NCBI RefSeq assembly: GCF_030028105.1
Contig: NC_092395.1
Coordinates: 17,266,424 to 17,330,423, forward strand
Reading direction: 5' to 3'
DNA: 64,000 bases
Source of the DNA: Mobula birostris
Taxonomy: Eukaryota
In this document: one piece after another, positions 7,006-47,396 of the stretch
How positions within the stretch are numbered: the first letter of the stretch is position 1
Layout of the letters: every line of letters begins with the position of its first letter
Position numbers and translations under genes: made by a program
The notes under the pieces: model-generated
Seen by the model: the letters and a program-made list of their open reading frames with translations, nothing else
What the model was told of the DNA's origin: nothing
Database searches by the model: none

Positions 7006-9163
7006 CAAGTAAAAAAAAATGCTAGATTTAAGTACAAATGCACCACTTCTTTGCAGAAGGACTGTTTGGGTCCTTTGAGAAGGGTAGGGGTGAAAGATTC
7101 AAACTCCTGGGTTTGCATAGAAAAGTGCCTTGAGAAGGAGTGGGCTGTTGGGGACTGAATGTGGATCAGTATGTCGTGAAAGGAGTGTTCCCTTGAATGT
7201 TGAAAGGGGAAAGAAATAGCAGGTAGTGTAGTCTTGTTGGAGCTGATGAAAATTGTGAATGGTTTAAAGTACATTGCACAACTTTGATATTCGTATCCTA
7301 ACAGGCAGCCATGAAACAAAGAATCCCAAAAAACCTATTTTAAAACAAGACCATCAAACGCCTACTGTGCAAAGGGAGAGGGAAAAAAAACATCATGCAA
7401 ACAATGAACGCAAGTAAATAGTGTTCTGAACTGAAGTCCAGAGTTCATTAATGGTCTCTTGGTTCAGAGCGAAGCAGCAAGCTGAACCAGCCCATCCCTT
7501 GGTTCAGGCCCCGACACCCAGACCTTTTCAATCTGGCTCAGCACCTAAATTGTCATTCAAATATCGGGTTCAACCACTTCGAAACACCTCGATTTGGCAT
7601 GTAACCAACCCTTATGACTTAGCTCGGCGCTTAAATTGTCATCCAAGTATCAGGTTCAGTTGCTTCGCTGTGCTTTGGGGTCTGGACCCCATCACCTCAA
7701 TTCAACTTTTATGTGACCTTTCTGATTCGGCCCAGCACGTAAATCGATCGAACCTCTGGTCTTCCTTGCTCTTGGCGACAGGTTCACTGCTTTGTCTTAG
7801 TTCTGCCACATCGAATTGCCTCCAAGACGTAAGGGAAGTTGCAGGCTGTTGCTGGCAGTGATCATTTACCAGAAAAAGTGATTAACGAATTACTTAGTTT
7901 TCCTTAATTTCATTAGCCAGCAGCCAGAATTCACTGAGATTCACCAGCACCATCTTAAACTGGATTCTTTGGATACAGTGAATGTTTGGGTGGAAGGTGA
8001 GAAGTAGGGGAAATCTGTTCTTAAAACTTTTTTTTTAAGAAAAAGAGAAGCCGAAAGCAGGTGTAGAAAGTTGATCAGATATGGTTCAAAGTTCTGTCCA
8101 CTAGAATTCAGTAAGACTTTTCAGAGGATTGGAGTAATTGTGATTAAAAATGGAGAAACATGGAGAATGGAAAGGGTCCTTGCATAGGAGGATGTATAGT
8201 CAAGAAAACTGGGGAGATCTATGGGCTTGATGGAACTAGTTTCCTATTTTTAAAAAATTGAATCCCTTGCTGGTGGCCTAACTGCATTAACCTCATGACA
8301 TTGAATTCATTTTTACCCAAGTGGTAACCTAGATATCTTGTGCTTTTCCTTGGAGTTCCTGTGTTACTAGAATACATTTTGTTGCAATCAATCATTCATT
8401 TTAACAGATTTGGTTCATTCTGTGCCTGCAGTTAGTTACATACGTGGGTTCCTGCAAAAATAACATTTTTACAGTTGATAATCTTTCATGTGAATGTGTG
8501 AACTGAAGCTGACCATTCAGGTTTTCAATCTTTTTTCACCATTCTGTTAGATTGTGACTGATTTGCATCAGAGTGCCAGTGTCCATTATGCGAAGTGCAG
8601 CACAGGAGCATGTCCTTAGGCCCACAGTACTATCCTGAACTAAATTAATAATCAAATGCCCAAATTAAACCAATCCCTTCTGCTTGCATGATGTCCATAT
8701 CTTTCCATTTGCTGCTAATTGCCTCTTGAATGGCCCTTTCAAATTTGCCGCCTTCACCGGCCCAGGCATCCACTTGCTTTTCACATTTCCTTTGATCTTA
8801 TTCCCTTTGATATTAGGTATGTCAGCCTGGGAAAATAATACTGGCTGTCTACTATTTGTATACAGCTCAATCTTAGAAAATCACCACAAGTCTCCCCATA
8901 GTCTCCTCCACGCCAGAGAAAAGTCAAAGCTTGTCCAATCTCTCCTTGTAATACATGACCTCTAATCTAGTCAGCATCTTGGTAAACTACTTCAGCACCC
9001 TCTTCAAAGTCTTCACTCCTTCTAATCATGGGGTGACCCAGAAATGAATGCAATACTCTAGTTGTGGCCTGAATAGAGTTTTAAAAAGCTGTAACATCAA
9101 CTTTTGACATCAAAGTTGCTGGTGAACGCAGCAGGCCAGGCAGCATCTGTAGGAAGAGGTGCG

Positions 9164-9197
9164 GTCGACGTTTCAGGCCGAGACCCTTCATCAGGAC
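9164..9197 (-). ncRNA. Minimal type I hammerhead ribozyme motif (PLE pLTR)
   Basis: Minus strand GUC-CUGAUGA-AGG(GUCUCGG)CCU-GAAA-C-GUC-GAC: intact core, stem I GUC/GAC, palindromic ACGU stem III. Confidence 0.75.
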
Positions 9198-10007
9198 TAA
9201 CTGAAGGAAGAGTGAGTAAGAGATTTGAAAGTTGGAGGGGGAGGGGGAGATCCAAAATGATAGGAGAAGACAAGAGGGGGAGGGATAGAGCCAAGAGCTG
9301 GACATGTGATAGGGAAAAGGTGATACGAGAGGATCATGGGACAGGAGGTCGGGGAAGAAAGACGGGGGGGGGGACCCAGAGGATGAGCAAGAAGTATATT
9401 CAGAGGGACAGAGGGAGAAAAACGAGAGTGAGGGAAAGAATGTGTGCATAAAAATAAGTAACAGATGGGGTACGAGGGGGAGGTGGGGCCTTAGCGGAAG
9501 TTAGAGAAGTTGATATTCATGCCATCAGGTTGGAGGCTACCCAGACGGAATCTAAGGTGTTGTTCCTCCAACCTGAGTGTGGCTTCATCTTAACAGTAGA
9601 GGAGTTCCTCTACTGTAAAGATGAAGCCACACTCAGGTTGGAGGAACAACACCTTGTATTCCGTCTGGGTAGCCTCCAACCTGATGGCATGAACATCGAC
9701 CTCTAACTTCCGCTAAGGCCCCACCTCCCCCTCGTACCCCATCTGTTACTTACTTTTATGCACATATTCTTTCTCTCACTCTCCTTTTTCTCCCTCTGAA
9801 TATACCTCTTGCCCATCCTCTGGGTCCCCCCCCACCCCCTTATCTTTCTTCCCGGACCTCCTGTCCCATGATCCTCTCGTATCCCCTTTTCCCTATCACC
9901 TGTCCAGCCCTTGGCTCTATCCCTCCCCCTCCTGTCTTCTCCTATCATTTTGGATCTCCCCCTCCCCCTCCAACTTTCAAATCTCTTACTCACTCTTCCT
10001 CCAGTTA

Positions 10008-10041
10008 GTCCTGATGAAGGGTCTCGGCCTGAAACGTCGAC
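10008..10041 (+). ncRNA. Minimal type I hammerhead ribozyme motif (PLE pLTR), sense to the host pre-mRNA
   Basis: gtc ctgatga agggtctcggcct gaaa c gtc gac; predicted cleavage after C10038. Confidence 0.75.
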
Positions 10042-10494
10042 CGCGCCTCTTCCTACAGATGCTGCCTGGCCTGCTGCGTTCACCAGCAACTTTGATGTCA
10101 AAAGTTGATGTTACAGCTTTTTAAAACTCTATTCAGGCCACAACTGGAGTATTGCATTCATTTCTGGGTCACCCCATGATTGGAAGGAGTGAAGACTTTG
10201 AAGAGGGTGCTGAAGTAGTTTACCAAGATGCTGACTAGATTAGTGGCCATGTATTACAAGGAGAGATTGGACAAGCTTTGATTTTTCTCTGGCGTGGAGG
10301 AGACTATGGGGAGACTTGATGGTGATTTTCTAAGATTGAGCTGTATACAAATAGTAGACAGCCAGTATTATTTCCCCAGGCTGACATACCTAATATCAAA
10401 GGGAATAAGATCAAAGGAGATGTGAAAAGCAAGTGGATGCCTGGGCCGGTGAAGGCGGCAAATTTGAAAGGGCCATTCAAGATGCAACACTTAA

Positions 10495-11200
10495 GTTGGC
10501 TAGGTTAAACACCATCTCCCAGTGGCCATCCATTTTAATTCTACTTCCTATTCCCATTCTGATATGTCTATCCATGGCTTTATCTGCTGTTGCAATGAGG
10601 CCACACTCAGGTTGGAGAAACAACACCTTGTATTCTATCTGGGTAGCCTCCAACCTGATGGCATGAGCATCAATTTCTTGAACTGCCTGTATTGCCCCAC
10701 CCCCTTCANNNNNNNNNNNNNNNNNNNNNNNNNNNNNNNNNNNNNNNNNNNNNNNNNNNNNNNNNNNNNNNNNNNNNNNNNNNNNNNNNNNNNNNNNNNN
10801 NNNNNNNNNNNNNNNNNNNNNNNNNNNNNNNNNNNNNNNNNNNNNNNNNNNNNNNNNNNNNNNNNNNNNNNNNNNNNNNNNNNNCCCTGCCTGCCCATCA
10901 CCTCCCTCTGGTGCTTTCCCCCCCTTTTCCTTCTGGCCTTCTATCATCTTCTGTTAGATTCTCGTTATTCAGCTCGATTTCTTTCACCAATTTTCCAGCT
11001 CTTTACCTTATCCCTCCTCCTCCTCCCAGTTTTAGCTATCACCTTGTATTTCTCCCTCCCCTCCATCCACCTTTCAACTCTACTCCTCATCTTTTTTTCT
11101 CCAGTCTTGCTGAAAGGACTCGGCCCAAAATGTCAACTGTACTTTTTTCCATAAATGTTGCCTGGCCTGCTGAGTTTCTCCAGCATTTTGTGTGTGGCTT
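10495..11200 (+). mobile_element. Older PLE family A 3' fragment spanning a gap
   Basis: AIHFNSTSYSHSDMSIHG..EATLRLEKQHLVFYLGSLQPDGMSINF; decayed hammerhead at about 11103-11140. Confidence 0.8.
10709..10884. other. Assembly gap (176 N)
   Basis: Run of n. Confidence 1.
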
Positions 11201-11893
11201 AAACTCCATTTACTATTTCTCTACCCATATCTGCAACTGTTGTATCCTTTGCTGGTCTTCTATACTATCCACAACACAACCAATCTTGGTACCATAATTA
11301 ACCCACCCATTGAAGTCATTTATATGTATCAAATGCCAGAACTTCCAGAGCAGGTCCCTATATTGACTGTTAATCACTGACCTCCAGCCAGAATAAGTCC
11401 CATTGATCTCTATTCTATGAGTAAACTAATTCTGAATCTTGACTACCAAATTTACTGTCGATCCATGCATCTTAATCTTTTGGATGAGCCCCCATAAGGG
11501 ACCTTGACAAATATTTTACTAAAGAGCATGTAGGCAACATTCACAGGTCTATCTTCATCAATTGCCTTCCTTACTACTTCAAAAAAAAAACTCGTTAGTA
11601 AGACAGAACTTGCCTTGCCCCTCACAATGCAATGAGTTATGCCATTGCTTTCTAATTGCTCATCCTATTCATTAACTTCCTCAACACTGATGTGAAATTC
11701 ACTAGTTTTATAGTTTCCAGGATTATACATTTCTCTTCTTGAATAGTGGAACCTTAGCTATTTGCCGTCCTTCAAAACCTAGCCTGTTGCTAGAGATGGT
11801 ACAAAGATATTGATCAAGGCCCCAGCTCATCTCTCAACCTTAATGATGAGTATATTCCATCGGGTCCTGGTGACTTTTCCACCTTGATGTTTA

Positions 11894-14550: not shown

Positions 14551-15763
14551 CAGTGGTCCCCAACCACTGGGCCGTGGACTGGTACCGTTAAGCATGTGCT
14601 ACCGAGCGGTAAGTAAACAATATGATTTGGCGATATGAAACGATACGAGTCAGCTGCACCTTTCCTCATTCCCTGTCGCACCCACTGTTGAACTTTGATG
14701 CACGCAAGGTCATCAGTGACCCTAGACGTGCAAAGGAATGGGTCCGTGACCCATTTGTGAATGTTTCCAGTGAATCTTCCATGTCAGCACGAGAAGACGA
14801 TCAACTCCTTGAGCTTGCAAATGACGGTGGGCTGAAAAGTATGGTTGACATAACGTCTGTGCCGGCATTCTGAATCAAAGTCAATGCTGAATATCTTGAG
14901 GTAGCCACGAAAGCACTGAAAACGTTGCTTCCATTTCCAATATCATATCACTGCGAAGCGGAGTTTTCTGCAATGAATGCAACGAAAACTAAATTGCAGA
15001 ATAGACTGGATATAAGGAACCCCTTTCGAGTATCGCTGTTTCCCATCACCCCTTGATGGGACCGTCTTGTTGCAGGAAAACAAGCCCAGGACTCCCACTG
15101 ATTGAGCCATCTTGGTGCGTTGCAATGATTTTATATGTTCATACGAGGAAAATATGCGCTGTGTTTAATATCCAAACGTTACTTAAAATGTTATGATGTT
15201 ATTGACTTAAATTCAGTGGTCCCCAACCTCTGATCCACGAAGAATGCAGCGGTAGCTGGAATGCACCTAGCACATCTTTAAGAAAAAAGCCGAAGTAAAC
15301 AAGCTAATTGATTAGGTGCCGCCTGGCATGTAAATGTCGGTCCAGATCAGAGGGGATTGCCGATGCGTTGCCTCTGATCTGGGCTGGCATTTACATGCCG
15401 GGTGACACCTAATCAATTAGCTTGTTTACTTCAGCTTTTTTCTTAAAGATGTGCTGGGTGCGCTCTGGCTACCGCTGCGTTCTTCGCGGCAATATATTGG
15501 TCCGCGGCCCAGAGGTTTGGAGCCACTGTTATAATTGACTTATCACTACATTCATGGGAGGAAAATATGCGCTGTGTGTTTAATATTAAATTAGTTAAAT
15601 AAACCTCTTCAGAAACGAAATTGAGTGTATTAACCACTTATAACTGACTTATCACCTATATTCCGGTCGTGATTAACACCCCCCACCCACCAGGTCGGCC
15701 GGTCCGCAAGAATATTGTCAATATTAAAGCAGTCTGCGGTGCAAAAAAGGTTGGGGACCCCTG
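14551..15763 (+). mobile_element. hAT Charlie/MER1-like non-autonomous transposon
   Basis: Exact 8-bp TSD ttctaggg (14543-50, 15764-71); TIR cagtggtccccaacc/ggttggggacccctg; C-terminal transposase remnant EWVRDPF..QLLELAND..KALKTLLPFP..KTKLQNRLD..KQAQDSH. Confidence 0.93.
15214..15528. mobile_element. Palindromic hAT MITE nested in the Charlie element
   Basis: Same TIR type (cagtggtccccaacctc/gaggtttggagccactg); interior is an inverted repeat of about 110 bp per arm. Confidence 0.85.
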
Positions 15764-17664: not shown

Positions 17665-17892
<228 letters not shown>

Positions 17893-28539: not shown

Positions 28540-31108
28540 TTCTTCCTGAGTATAGGCAGAGACTGAAGACTGCAGCACCAGTAGTGAGGACCAAGAAGGT
28601 ATGGTCAAGGGAAGCACAGGAGCGCCTACAGGACTGATTTGAATCAGTAGACTGGACTGTATTCATCTTCAAACCTGGATGAGTATGCTGCAGTTGTTAC
28701 CAACTTTATTAAAACCTATGTGGATGAGTGTGTGCCTACAAAGACTTGCTGTACATTCCCAAACCAAAAGCAGTGGATGAACCAGGAGGTACGTCGTCTG
28801 CTGAAGGCTAGATCTGCAGCATGCATTCAAGTCTGGCGACCCAGGCCTGTACCAGGAAACCAGGTATGATTTGTGGAGGGCTGTTTCAAGGGCAAAGAGA
28901 CAATTTCGAACGAGGTTGGAGGTGACGTTGGATGTACCTGACAACTCTGGCAGGGTTTGCAAGACATTACTTCCTACAAAGTGAAACCCAATAGCACGAA
29001 TTGCAGTGATGCTTCACTACCAAATGAACTCAACACTTTCTATGCCCTCTTTGAAAGGGAGAATATAACTACAGCTGTGAAGATCCCTGCTGCACCTGAT
29101 GACTCTGTGATCTCTGTCTCAGAGGCTGATGTTAGACTGTCTTTAAAGAGCGTGAATCCTCGCAAGGCGGTAGGTCCCAATGGAGTACCTGGTGAGGCTG
29201 AAAATCTGTGTCAACCAACTGGCAGGAGTATTCAAGGACATTTTTAACCTCTCACTGTTACGGTCAGAAATTCCCACTTTTTTCAAAAAGGCAACAATTA
29301 TATCAGTGCCTAAGAAGAGCTGCCTTAATGACTCACCTGGTAGCACTCACATCTACAGTGATGAAATGTTTTGAGAGGTTGGTCATGAATAGACTGAAGT
29401 CCTGCCTCAGCAACCTGGACCCATTGCAATTTGCCTATCGCCACAATAGGTCAACTGCAGATGCAATCTCAATGGCTCTTCACATGGCTTTAGACCACCT
29501 GGACAACACAAACACCTATGTCAGGATGCTGTTCATCGACTATAGCTCAGCATTTAATATCATCATTCCCACAATCCTGATTGAGAAGTTGCAGAACTTG
29601 GGCCTCTGTACCTCCCTCTGTAATTGGATCCTCGACTTCCTAACCGGAAGACCACAATCTGTGCAGATTGGTGATAACATTTCCTTGCTGATGATCGACA
29701 CTGGTGCACCCCAGGGGTGTGTGCTTAGCCCACTGCTCTACTCGTTATATCCATGACAGTGTGGTTAGGCATAGCTCAAATACCATCTATAAACTTGCTG
29801 ATGATACAACTATTGTTGGTAGAATTCCAGATGGTGACGAGAGGCATACAGGAGTGAGATATGCCAACTAGTGGAGTGATGTCGCAGCAATAACCTGACT
29901 CAGTGTCAGTAAGACGAAAGAGCTGATTGTGGACTTCAGGAAGGGTAAGATGAAGGAACACATACTAATCCTTATTGAGGGATCAGATGTGGAGAGAATG
30001 AGCAGTTTCAAGTTCCTGGGTGTCAAGATCTCTGAGGATCTAACCTGATCCCAGCATATTGATGCAGTTATAAAGAAGGCAAGACAGCGGCTATACCTTA
30101 TTAGGAGTTTGAAGAGATTTGGTATGTCAACAAATAGACTCAAAAACTTATATGGATTTACTTTGGCTGCATCACTGTTTGGTATGGGGGACCTACTGCA
30201 CGGGACCGAAAGAAGCTGCAGAGGGTTGTAAATTTAGTCAGCCCCATCTTGGGTACGAGCCTACAAAGTACCCAGGACACCTTCAAAGAGCGGTGTCTCA
30301 GAAAGGCAGTATCCATTATTAAGGACCTCCAGCACCCAGGGCATGCCATCAGGCACACACTCAGTGATTCAGGAACAGCTTCTTCCCCTCTACCATCCGA
30401 TTCCTAAATGGACATTGAACCATTGAACACTCCCTCACTTTTTTTAATATACGAAGGGTAATGGATAAGTTCGTGGCCTAAGGTAGAAGGAGTCAATTTT
30501 AGAAAATCTAGCACACTTATTTTTCAACATAGTCCCCGCCTACATGTACACACTTAGTCCAGCGGTCGTGGAGCATACGGATCCCTTATTTGTAGAAGTG
30601 GTCCACAGCAGGAGTGATTGATAACTTTGTGGCCTAATGTAGAAGGAGATGAGTTATACAGCTGTCATTACATACACGTGCAGTTCAACTCCTTGAGTGA
30701 AAATGCAGAAAGTTTGGAGATAATAACTCATCTCCTTCTACCTTAGGCCACAACCTTATCAATCACCCCTGCTGTGAACCACTTCTGGAGGTCCAAGACG
30801 CTGACCTCTACAAAGAAGGGATCCATATGCTCCACGACCGCTGGAGTAAGTGTGTAAATGTAGGGAAAATAAATGTGCTAGATTTTCTAAAATTGACTCC
30901 TTCTACCTTAGGCCACGAACTTATCAATCACCCCTCGTATATTATTTCTGTTTTTTGCACAATTTTTAATCTGTTCAATAAATGTATACTGTAATTGATT
31001 TATTATTTTATTGTGCATTTTTCTTCTATATTATATATTGCATTGAACCGCTGCTGCTAAGTTAACAAATTTCACGACACATGCCGGTGATGATAAATCT
31101 GATTCTGA
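28540..31108 (+). mobile_element. Rex1/Babar LINE, longest copy, with stops and frameshifts
   Basis: [63 protein letters not shown]; (GATTCT) tail. Confidence 0.93.
30452..30937. mobile_element. Mariner-derived palindromic MITE
   Basis: TA TSD (30450-51, 30938-39); long TIRs; both arms carry a mariner transposase C-terminus. Confidence 0.9.
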
Positions 31109-46099: not shown

Positions 46100-47396
46100 G
46101 CAACATACACAAAATACTGAAGGAGCTCAGCAGGCCAGGTAGTACCAGAGTAAACAGACGTTTCGGGCCTAGACCCTTCGTCAGAACTAGAGAAAATAGA
46201 TGGGAAGCCAGAGTAAGAAGATGGGGGGAGGGTTTGGTGGAGTAAGAAATACAGGGTAGTAAATGATAAGTGAAACTGGAGAGGGAACGGGGTGAAATGA
46301 AGAGCTATGAATTCGATTGGTGAAAGACATAAAGGGCTGGAGAAGGGAGAATCTGATGGGAGAGGACAGAAGGCATGGAAGAAAGGGAGGGGGAGGAGCA
46401 CCAGATGGAGGTGACCGGCAAGTAAGGAGATGAGGTGAGGGGGGGCATTACTGGAAGTTCGAGAGGTCAGTGTTCATGCCATCGGGTTGGATGCTGCCCA
46501 GACAGAATATAAGGTGTTGTGCCTCTGACCCGAGTGTGGCCTCACTGCGGCAGTAGAAGAGGCCACGGACTGACATGACAGAATGGGAATGGGTGGCCAC
46601 TGGGAGATCCTGCTTTTTCCGCCGAATGGAGTGTAGGTGCTCGGTGAAGCAGTCTTCCAATCTGTGTCGTGTCTCACCGATGTACAGGAGGCTTGTGAGT
46701 CTGTTGGAGGTGTTCCCGGTGTAAACTCCTGTATATCCTGACATAAATTGGGAGACTACTTCGCCGAGCACCTTTGCTCCATCTGGCAGTAAAAGCGAGA
46801 TCTTCCAGTGGCCACCCATTTTTATTCTACTTCCCATTCTGACATGTCAGTCCATGGCCTCCTCTAGTGCCATGATGAGGCCAGACACAGGTTGGAGGAG
46901 TAAGACCTTGTATTCTGGGTAGTCTCCAACCTGATGGCAAAAACATCAATTTCTTGAACTTCCAGTAATGGGCATCTCCTCCCCCCACCACCATCCCCCA
47001 TTACCATTTCCCTTCTCACCTTATATCCTTACCTGCCCATCACCTCTGTCTGGTGCTTCTCCACCTTCCCTTTCTTCCATGACCTTCAGTTCTCCCCTAT
47101 TAGATTCCACCTTCTCCAGCCCTTTAGCTCTTATACCAATCAGCTTCTCAGCTCTTTACTGCACTCCTCCCCCTCCCCTCCCTCTTTCACCTATCACCTT
47201 CTACCTTGTATTTCTTCCTCCCCTCCCTCCACCTCTGACTTTCCATCTTTTTTTCTCCGGTTCTGGTGGAGGAGCCTTGGTTCGAAACGTTGACTGTTTA
47301 CTCTTTTCCATAGTTCCTGCCTGGCCTGCAGTGTTCCTCTAGCATTTTATGTGTGTTGCTTGGATTTCTGGCATCTGCAGATTTTCTCTTGTTTGG
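46100..47396. mobile_element. PLE family A insertion made of two inverted 3' halves
   Basis: GIY-YIG remnant LLYIGETRHRLEDCFTEHLHSIRRKKQDLPVATH..HLIFCLGSIQPDGMN; - arm about 46100-46690, + arm about 46730-47396; TSD aaatgg(c/a)agtcttt (46086-99, 47397-410); hammerhead core intact at 46153-46188(-) but stem I lost. Confidence 0.88.

What the first reader, a model, noticed from the sequence alone, without database searches (positions are those of the whole stretch)
8719..10487. 1.77-kb fold-back palindrome joining a hammerhead-bearing PLE end and its host flank
Seen: two arms of about 885 bp with a 2-nt spacer. Each arm is about 500 bp of young PLE 3' end plus about 385 bp of CR1 DNA; both pLTRs break at the same point (actttgatgt) and run into the same CR1 sequence. 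The left arm continues into native CR1, so the right arm is the copy. By eye the CR1 parts differ at about 7 substitutions (mostly transitions) and 1 indel, so it is not a perfect read fold-back. Known: PLEs make inverted pLTRs, and spacer-less palindromes are usually unstable. Inference: PLE integration or fold-back repair duplicated flanking DNA, giving an ~880-bp dsRNA stem in intron 1 in which the sense hammerhead is masked by its antisense copy. Caveat: a gap lies about 220 nt downstream, so mis-joined alleles are possible.
Basis: partly seen in the sequence, partly recalled or inferred. Interest (0 to 1): 0.7.

Follow-up and report, generated by a model that had tools for sequence, protein, structure and literature searches.

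The report
Penelope palindrome later extended into flank
A 1.76-kb mirror-image stretch in an intron consists of two back-to-back ends of a common jumping gene plus a backwards copy of about 380 neighbouring bases, and it likely formed in two steps, an ordinary insertion followed much later by a DNA-copying slip on the resulting hairpin, so it is probably a rare accident with no function.

Summary
The palindrome is in the assembly as described and is very likely real. Arms are 8724-9603 and 9606-10482, with a 2-nt centre. Each holds ~495 bp of Penelope-like element (PLE) 3' end plus ~383 bp of CR1. The N-run downstream is not an assembly gap. The right arm rejoins the same CR1 copy ~170-185 bp further on through an imperfect 10-nt microhomology, so this is an inverted duplication with a deletion. 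It is rare: 0 of 53 other measured head-to-head pairs duplicate flank, and 0 of 56 lack the tail on both ends. Mutations favour two steps. The inner 277 bp differ at 5.4% with no shared derived changes; the outer PLE and CR1 parts differ at 2.2%, with four shared changes in the outer PLE. Best reading (0.6): an old near-perfect PLE hairpin was later extended by template switching or break repair. Fold-back at integration remains possible (0.27). No single molecule spanning both arms was seen. The hammerhead is a minimal motif, likely inert regardless of masking. The scan noted a similar two-step case in another genome (unchecked).

The parts
8724..9108 (-). Native CR1 LINE fragment (3' part of the RT region); template of the duplicated flank
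   Evidence: 73-75% identity to 8 CR1 relatives, and continues leftward into native CR1. The CR1 label rests on recalled motifs in the translation; a related fragment at 34648-35346 hits RVT_1
9107..9603 (-). Left PLE arm: 5'-truncated GIY-YIG C-terminus plus pLTR, tail-less 3' end
   Evidence: 93% to the family reference; junction also present in a second species' contig, though only 24 nt past the joint
9604..9605 (.). 2-nt centre of the palindrome
   Evidence: the three near-spacerless long pairs measured elsewhere have 11, 76 and 105 nt
9606..10097 (+). Right PLE arm, also tail-less; its outer ~209 bp share four non-majority variants with the left arm
10007..10042 (+). Minimal hammerhead motif (core CTGATGA / GAAA / GTC, palindromic stem III); mirror copy at 9163-9198 on the minus strand
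   Evidence: read from sequence; no Rfam hammerhead match
10098..10482 (+). Inverted copy of the CR1 flank
   Evidence: 98% to the left copy, the only such match among 40 scored candidates in the genome; 7 substitutions and 1 indel
10478..10487 (.). Return junction: imperfect microhomology (8 of 10 nt between the arm and CR1 relatives L009/L010); ~170-185 bp of CR1 missing
   Evidence: native letters and deletion size are inferred from relatives (184 nt in L009)
10483..10517 (-). Native CR1 resuming after the deletion
   Evidence: 82.5% and 77.5% to L009 and L010
10518..11198 (+). Older PLE copy inserted in the same CR1, flanked by a likely 13-bp target duplication (10505-10517 and 11199-11211, 11 of 13 identical)
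   Evidence: sequence
17701..17884 (+). Coding exon 2 of the G-alpha q/11-type host gene; the palindrome lies in its ~72-kb intron 1

Best explanation
Two back-to-back 3' ends of an abundant Penelope-like retrotransposon sit in a CR1 fragment, and this near-perfect hairpin likely served, long after insertion, as the site of a polymerase template switch that copied about 590 bp of the left side backwards onto the right side. Step 1 (inferred): an ordinary head-to-head PLE insertion with a 2-nt centre, probably with the usual tail on its right end. Step 2 (inferred): a strand stalled or broke in the right arm near window 9885-9890 and paired with the left arm. It copied the outer ~209 bp of PLE and 383 bp of CR1, then returned to its own template at an imperfect 10-nt microhomology. 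That dropped the old right end and ~170-185 bp of CR1. Shown: the structure, the deletion relative to CR1 relatives, and the mutation counts. The result is most likely a neutral intronic relic.
For: Structure: CR1 is collinear on both sides of the event, with microhomology at the single new junction. Normal pairs differ: 54 of 56 other pairs have one tailed end, 2 of 56 have two, 0 of 56 have none; in 0 of 53 measurable pairs does the inverted match run into flank. Two ages: against the majority of about 100 family copies, the inner 277 sites carry 15 private and 0 shared changes, and the outer 209 sites carry 5 private and 4 shared. Shared changes lie outward of private ones (rank test, no chosen boundary, p=0.007). 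Inner versus outer+CR1 divergence is 15/277 versus 13/592 (p=0.02, boundary chosen after looking). In 29 other pairs there is no such gradient: inner 163/6455, outer 134/4512. Per-arm change in the CR1 part is 5 left and 3 right in 383 bp against species B, the same as in the outer PLE (2 and 3 in 209). Species B has the PLE at the left junction and showed one CR1 version in three contig sets from two samples. Precedent: template switching can homogenise and expand inverted repeats (PMC13100816, abstract), and palindromes expand by duplicating flank with one new junction (PMC6790999, passages).
Against: Counts are small. PLE versus CR1 divergence overall is not significantly different (20/486 vs 8/383, p=0.12). 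Shared non-majority variants also occur in ordinary pairs (49 in 10,967 sites; L046 has 3 outer and 0 inner), and two of the four shared here are common in the family (9 of 100, 11 of 105). The inner excess is mostly in the left arm (10 vs 5); the right inner arm has fewer changes than the left-arm rate predicts (P=0.11). The symmetric 2-nt centre also fits a hairpin fold-back at insertion. The CR1 duplication dates only to about the A-B split, and collapsed contigs cannot show whether B lacks the right arm. The surveyed pairs are top BLAST hits, not a random sample.
Confidence: 0.6

Rival explanations
1. Made at integration: the first cDNA, primed at the CR1 nick, folded back on itself; DNA synthesis ran back through the priming junction and 383 bp of flank, then joined the resected other end by microhomology. 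Later arm-to-arm conversion or chance explains the uneven divergence.
For: Symmetric 2-nt centre. Neither end has the tail. Self-priming has been proposed for PLE inverted junctions (PMC3846280, passages). L1 insertions with local inverted duplications and microhomology have been seen (10.1101/2024.12.14.628481, passages). Overall PLE vs CR1 divergence is not significantly different.
Against: Predicts even private divergence; 15 inner changes are seen where the outer rate gives about 6 (P=0.002, boundary chosen after looking). Needs a later conversion tract reaching the very end of the CR1 arm. 0 of 53 other pairs show any flank run-through. B showed only one CR1 version (weak).
Confidence: 0.27
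2. One late fold-back from a single old PLE copy: a break inside it folded back and created the whole right arm, PLE and CR1 together, in one event.
For: Explains the tight centre, the identical 3' junction, the missing tail and the deletion in one step.
Against: Predicts shared derived changes along the whole PLE arm and low private divergence throughout. The inner part has 0 shared and 15 private changes; all four shared changes fall in the outer 43% (0.43^4 = 0.03).
Confidence: 0.07
3. Assembly artefact: a read fold-back or two alleles joined back to back.
For: No single molecule or contig spanning both arms was seen. In run X1 the long arm contig carries left-arm letters at every variable site it covers. 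X1 may be the assembly's own sample.
Against: No assembly gap nearby. Arms differ by 2-5%, more than species A and B differ in the adjacent flank (about 5 in 419 bp). Each arm keeps the species-B letter where the other has changed (5 and 3 sites). The right end returns to the same CR1 copy with microhomology. In X1 both letters at 8787 occur at like depth (14.4 vs 13.6 in paired 50-nt contigs). The arm contig is 1.41 times as deep as the flank contig (77.7 vs 55.3), where two copies predict about 1.3-1.4 and two alleles about 0.7; contig depth is a rough measure and the library looks Hi-C-like.
Confidence: 0.06

Closest known systems
Inverted-pLTR insertion units of endonuclease-bearing Penelope-like elements (PMC3846280, PMC8557442, PMC11167929)
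   Same: Head-to-head 5'-truncated copies of the 3' end; family with RT followed by C-terminal GIY-YIG; minimal hammerhead in the pLTR; optional tail in the family.
   Different: No tail on either end, no target-site duplication, both 3' ends join the same flank, 383 bp of host DNA duplicated and ~180 bp deleted.
Inverted-repeat homogenisation and expansion by template switching (PMC13100816); palindrome expansion by duplication of flank on human Y (PMC6790999)
   Same: An existing inverted repeat grows outward, its arms become alike over the copied part, and one new junction forms.
   Different: Scale is ~0.6 kb, against 31.5 kb for the Y case (the yeast sizes were not read); the seed is a retroelement hairpin; timing is inferred from few mutations.
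L1 insertions with local inverted duplication or foldback (10.1101/2024.12.14.628481)
   Same: Retro-insertion next to an inverted copy of flank, small-hairpin centre, microhomology, loss of the target duplication.
   Different: Those are somatic or experimental L1 events coupled to integration; here the element is a PLE, the event is germline, and it appears to postdate insertion.

Membership tests
EN+ Penelope-like element (family of the arms) | Single ORF with RT followed by C-terminal GIY-YIG endonuclease | tested here: met
   Family copy L078: RVT_1 E=8.9e-6 and GIY-YIG E=3.3e-4, in that order, both below Pfam's curated cut-offs; ORFs up to 1001 aa. The arms hold only the last codons and the pLTR.
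EN+ Penelope-like element (family of the arms) | Tandem or inverted pLTRs with optional 30-40-bp tail | tested here: met
   Direct and inverted repeats in 39 loci; an optional extension of about 35-43 bp in the family
EN+ Penelope-like element (family of the arms) | Hammerhead motif in the pLTR | tested here: inconclusive
   Core letters present at 10007-10042 by eye; no Rfam hammerhead match; the isolated strand does not fold as a hammerhead; activity not testable
Standard inverted-pLTR insertion unit | Different host flank at each end with a short target duplication | tested here: not met
   Same flank at both ends for 383 bp and a deletion instead
Standard inverted-pLTR insertion unit | Tail on one end | tested here: not met
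   Both arms end at reference position 561; at least one tail in 56 of 56 other pairs
Template-switch or repair expansion of an inverted repeat | One new junction with microhomology, collinear host DNA beyond it | tested here: met
   (native letters inferred from two CR1 relatives)
Template-switch or repair expansion of an inverted repeat | Copied outer part younger than the inner repeat | tested here: inconclusive
   Supported at p=0.007-0.02 on small counts; overall PLE vs CR1 p=0.12
Template-switch or repair expansion of an inverted repeat | Unexpanded precursor present in a relative | not testable with these tools
   No relative genome is held; contigs of species B show the left junction only and cannot show absence

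The most novel reading that the evidence does not exclude
The tightest Penelope hairpins are recurrent germline seeds for local inverted duplication and deletion of host DNA: the element leaves a spacer-less palindrome, and the palindrome later grows into its flank, in a genome holding thousands of copies of this family. If instead it happened at insertion, this locus preserves a Penelope fold-back intermediate that ran through its own priming site.
Probability: 0.25. Interest if true: 0.55.

Novelty: new variant of a known kind. Interest (0 to 1): 0.3.

Why it matters
PLE integration is still poorly understood, so a true integration by-product would be informative; the evidence points instead to a later host-repair event. 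It shows that a ~1.8-kb palindrome with a 2-nt centre can persist in a vertebrate intron for at least 1% divergence per arm, and it suggests that PLE hairpins can rearrange their neighbourhood. As a single intronic relic made wholly of repeat DNA it has no evident function. Its value would rise only if a genome-wide count showed such expansions to be tied to spacer-less PLE pairs.

Tried and rejected
Pattern search for other fold-backs at the same centre: 0 matches. The pattern used the right-arm letter on both sides and would not match this locus either, so it only says that no exact symmetric twin was found. No contig of X1 or X5 covered the right junction (depth 0 at 10494-10495) and none appeared as a loose end among the rows shown; holes in contigs prove nothing. 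Species C (X11): a 95% contig follows CR1 to 9097 and then leaves the window sequence, and the left junction has no cover. This hints at an empty site, but the loose-end consensus mixes two contigs and could not be read. No RNA holder listed; editing and small RNAs could not be tested with contigs. Rfam: no match at gathering level; at E-value level only weak below-threshold matches, led by miRNA/sRNA models on the hairpin centre, rejected. The idea that the left inner arm comes from another subfamily was rejected: its variants are rare even after adding 29 copies chosen for likeness to it. Pfam gave nothing for the short GIY-YIG and CR1 pieces in the window. The 58- and 45-nt extensions in L061 and L076 are pairs tailed on both ends, not flank copies. 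Literature: six searches listed no paper whose title or abstract start describes PLE palindromes extending into host flank, and the passages read do not either; subscription journals and supplements were not seen.

Full report
Observation. Self-comparison of the window gives one inverted alignment over 8719-10487 at 94.8%, with a 2-nt centre at 9604-9605. Each arm is about 495 bp of a Penelope-like element (PLE) 3' end and about 383 bp of CR1. Both PLE copies stop at the same base and enter the same CR1 sequence. Among 40 scored candidates in the genome, the CR1 piece has exactly two near-identical copies, the two arms; the rest are 71-80% alike. The host is a G-alpha q/11-type gene on the plus strand, with exon 2 near 17701-17884 and exon 1 about 55 kb upstream.

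Is it real? Very likely. The N-run downstream is not an assembly gap, because the genome locus spanning it holds no N. Against the orthologous contig of a second species (runs X5 and X6, one sample), five differences are changes in the left arm and three are changes in the right arm. A read fold-back would not produce that, and the arms differ more than the two species do in the adjacent flank. In run X1 both letters at 8787 occur at like depth (14.4 and 13.6). The arm contig is 1.41 times as deep as the flank contig, near the two-copy prediction and far from the two-allele one. Limits: X1 may be the assembly's own sample and looks Hi-C-like, contig depth is rough, its long arm contig shows only left-arm letters, and no molecule spanning both arms was available.

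Anatomy of the right end. Beyond 10482 the sequence matches CR1 again (82.5% and 77.5% to relatives L009 and L010). An older PLE follows, flanked by a likely 13-bp target duplication, and CR1 continues past 11199. In L009 the two CR1 points are 184 nt apart, so about 170-185 bp are missing here. At the junction the arm and the relatives agree at 8 of 10 letters. The event is therefore an inverted duplication with a deletion and one new, microhomology-type junction.

How unusual? The family is a typical endonuclease-bearing PLE: RT then GIY-YIG in a long copy, both below Pfam cut-offs, with tandem and inverted pLTRs and an optional tail. I examined 125 loci from four searches and a contiguous 264-kb stretch. 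Of 56 other head-to-head pairs, 54 have a tail on one end, 2 on both, and none lacks it on both. Three pairs could not be measured. In the other 53 the inverted match stops within 17 nt of the reference end, except the two double-tailed pairs (45 and 58 nt). Three pairs had only about 100 nt or less of flank in view, and the 125 loci are top hits rather than a random draw. The present locus extends 389 nt. Its centre is also tighter than those of the three near-spacerless long pairs measured (11, 76, 105 nt).

Timing. Against the majority of about 100 family copies, the inner 277 sites of the PLE arms carry 10 left-private, 5 right-private and 0 shared changes. The outer 209 sites carry 2, 3 and 4. 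Shared changes lie outward of private ones (p=0.007, no boundary chosen), and inner divergence exceeds outer plus CR1 (15/277 vs 13/592, p=0.02, boundary chosen after looking). In 29 other pairs the inner and outer rates are 2.5% and 3.0%. The outer PLE and the CR1 part give the same young age, about 1% per arm, close to the A-B split. Species B has the PLE at the left junction, 24 nt past the joint and so short of the tool's bridging standard. Against this reading: counts are small, the overall PLE-versus-CR1 contrast is not significant (p=0.12), ordinary pairs also share variants (0.45% of sites), two of the four shared variants are common in the family, and B's right side is unseen.

Mechanism. 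Best reading (0.6): a standard head-to-head insertion with an unusually tight centre came first. Later a strand stalled or broke in the right arm, switched to the left arm, copied about 590 bp outward and returned at the microhomology, replacing the old right end. Formation at integration by cDNA fold-back (0.27) explains the tight centre and the missing tail but needs an extra conversion step. One late fold-back from a single copy (0.07) fails on the inner mutation pattern. An artefact is unlikely (0.06). I noted the two-step reading before seeing that the scan had reached a similar one for a locus in another genome; those notes are unchecked and are not counted as support. Another note from this genome proposes that ordinary pairs are primed from both cut strands; the one-tail, two-flank pattern of my survey is compatible with it but does not test it.

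RNA level. If the intron is transcribed intact, folding predicts a stem of 856 pairs in which all 43 nt scored around the hammerhead pair with the left arm. The motif is minimal and is not detected by Rfam. One shared variant (10042) shortens its stem I from four pairs to three (read). Minimal PLE hammerheads are reported to need dimers and to cut poorly (PMC4209133), and the anole PLE ribozyme needs the element's protein and is dispensable for insertion in vitro (PMC11167929). The same intron holds other long inverted repeats, including a 1.63-kb one. Masking is thus predicted but unlikely to be a regulatory device; editing could not be tested.

Comparison and papers. The arms belong to a known PLE layout (PMC3846280 and PMC8557442, passages seen; PMC11167929, parts 1-2 of 4; PMC4209133, passages), but the unit fails two features of that layout: one tail, and different flanks. 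It works like inverted-repeat expansion by template switching (PMC13100816, abstract only) or palindrome expansion into flank (PMC6790999, passages). It also resembles L1-linked inverted duplications (10.1101/2024.12.14.628481, passages). Six searches showed no paper on PLE palindromes extending into host DNA; no supplements were read. The CR1 and Tc1 labels rest partly on recalled motifs.

Verdict. Real, rare in this genome, explained by known processes, probably neutral. New variant of a known kind; interest 0.3.

Noticed in passing
L172 (about 20-22 kb upstream of the window, same intron): A 1.63-kb near spacer-less palindrome (89%) made of a decayed Tc1-like DNA transposon folded on itself (Tc1 label from recalled terminal and transposase motifs).
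   Followed up: partly
window 46100-47359: Older head-to-head PLE pair, arms 67% alike, no sign of flank duplication.
   Followed up: partly
window 15235-15489 and 30445-30944: Non-PLE palindromes (84% and 74%), likely MITE-type inserts inside other repeats.
   Followed up: no
window 10505-11211: Older PLE inserted in the same CR1 about 180 bp from the younger one, with a likely 13-bp target duplication.
   Followed up: yes
264 kb around the locus (L170-L189 plus window): 73 matches to the PLE 3' part, 26 of them at 88% identity or more, and several short spacer-less PLE stubs.
   Followed up: partly
L076:3783-6785: A 1001-aa open PLE reading frame, and several others over 700 aa, showing that the family is young.
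   Followed up: no
window 8724-9106 vs 8300-8718: A-B divergence seems higher inside the arm (11 in 383) than in the adjacent flank (about 5 in 419); not tested statistically.
   Followed up: no
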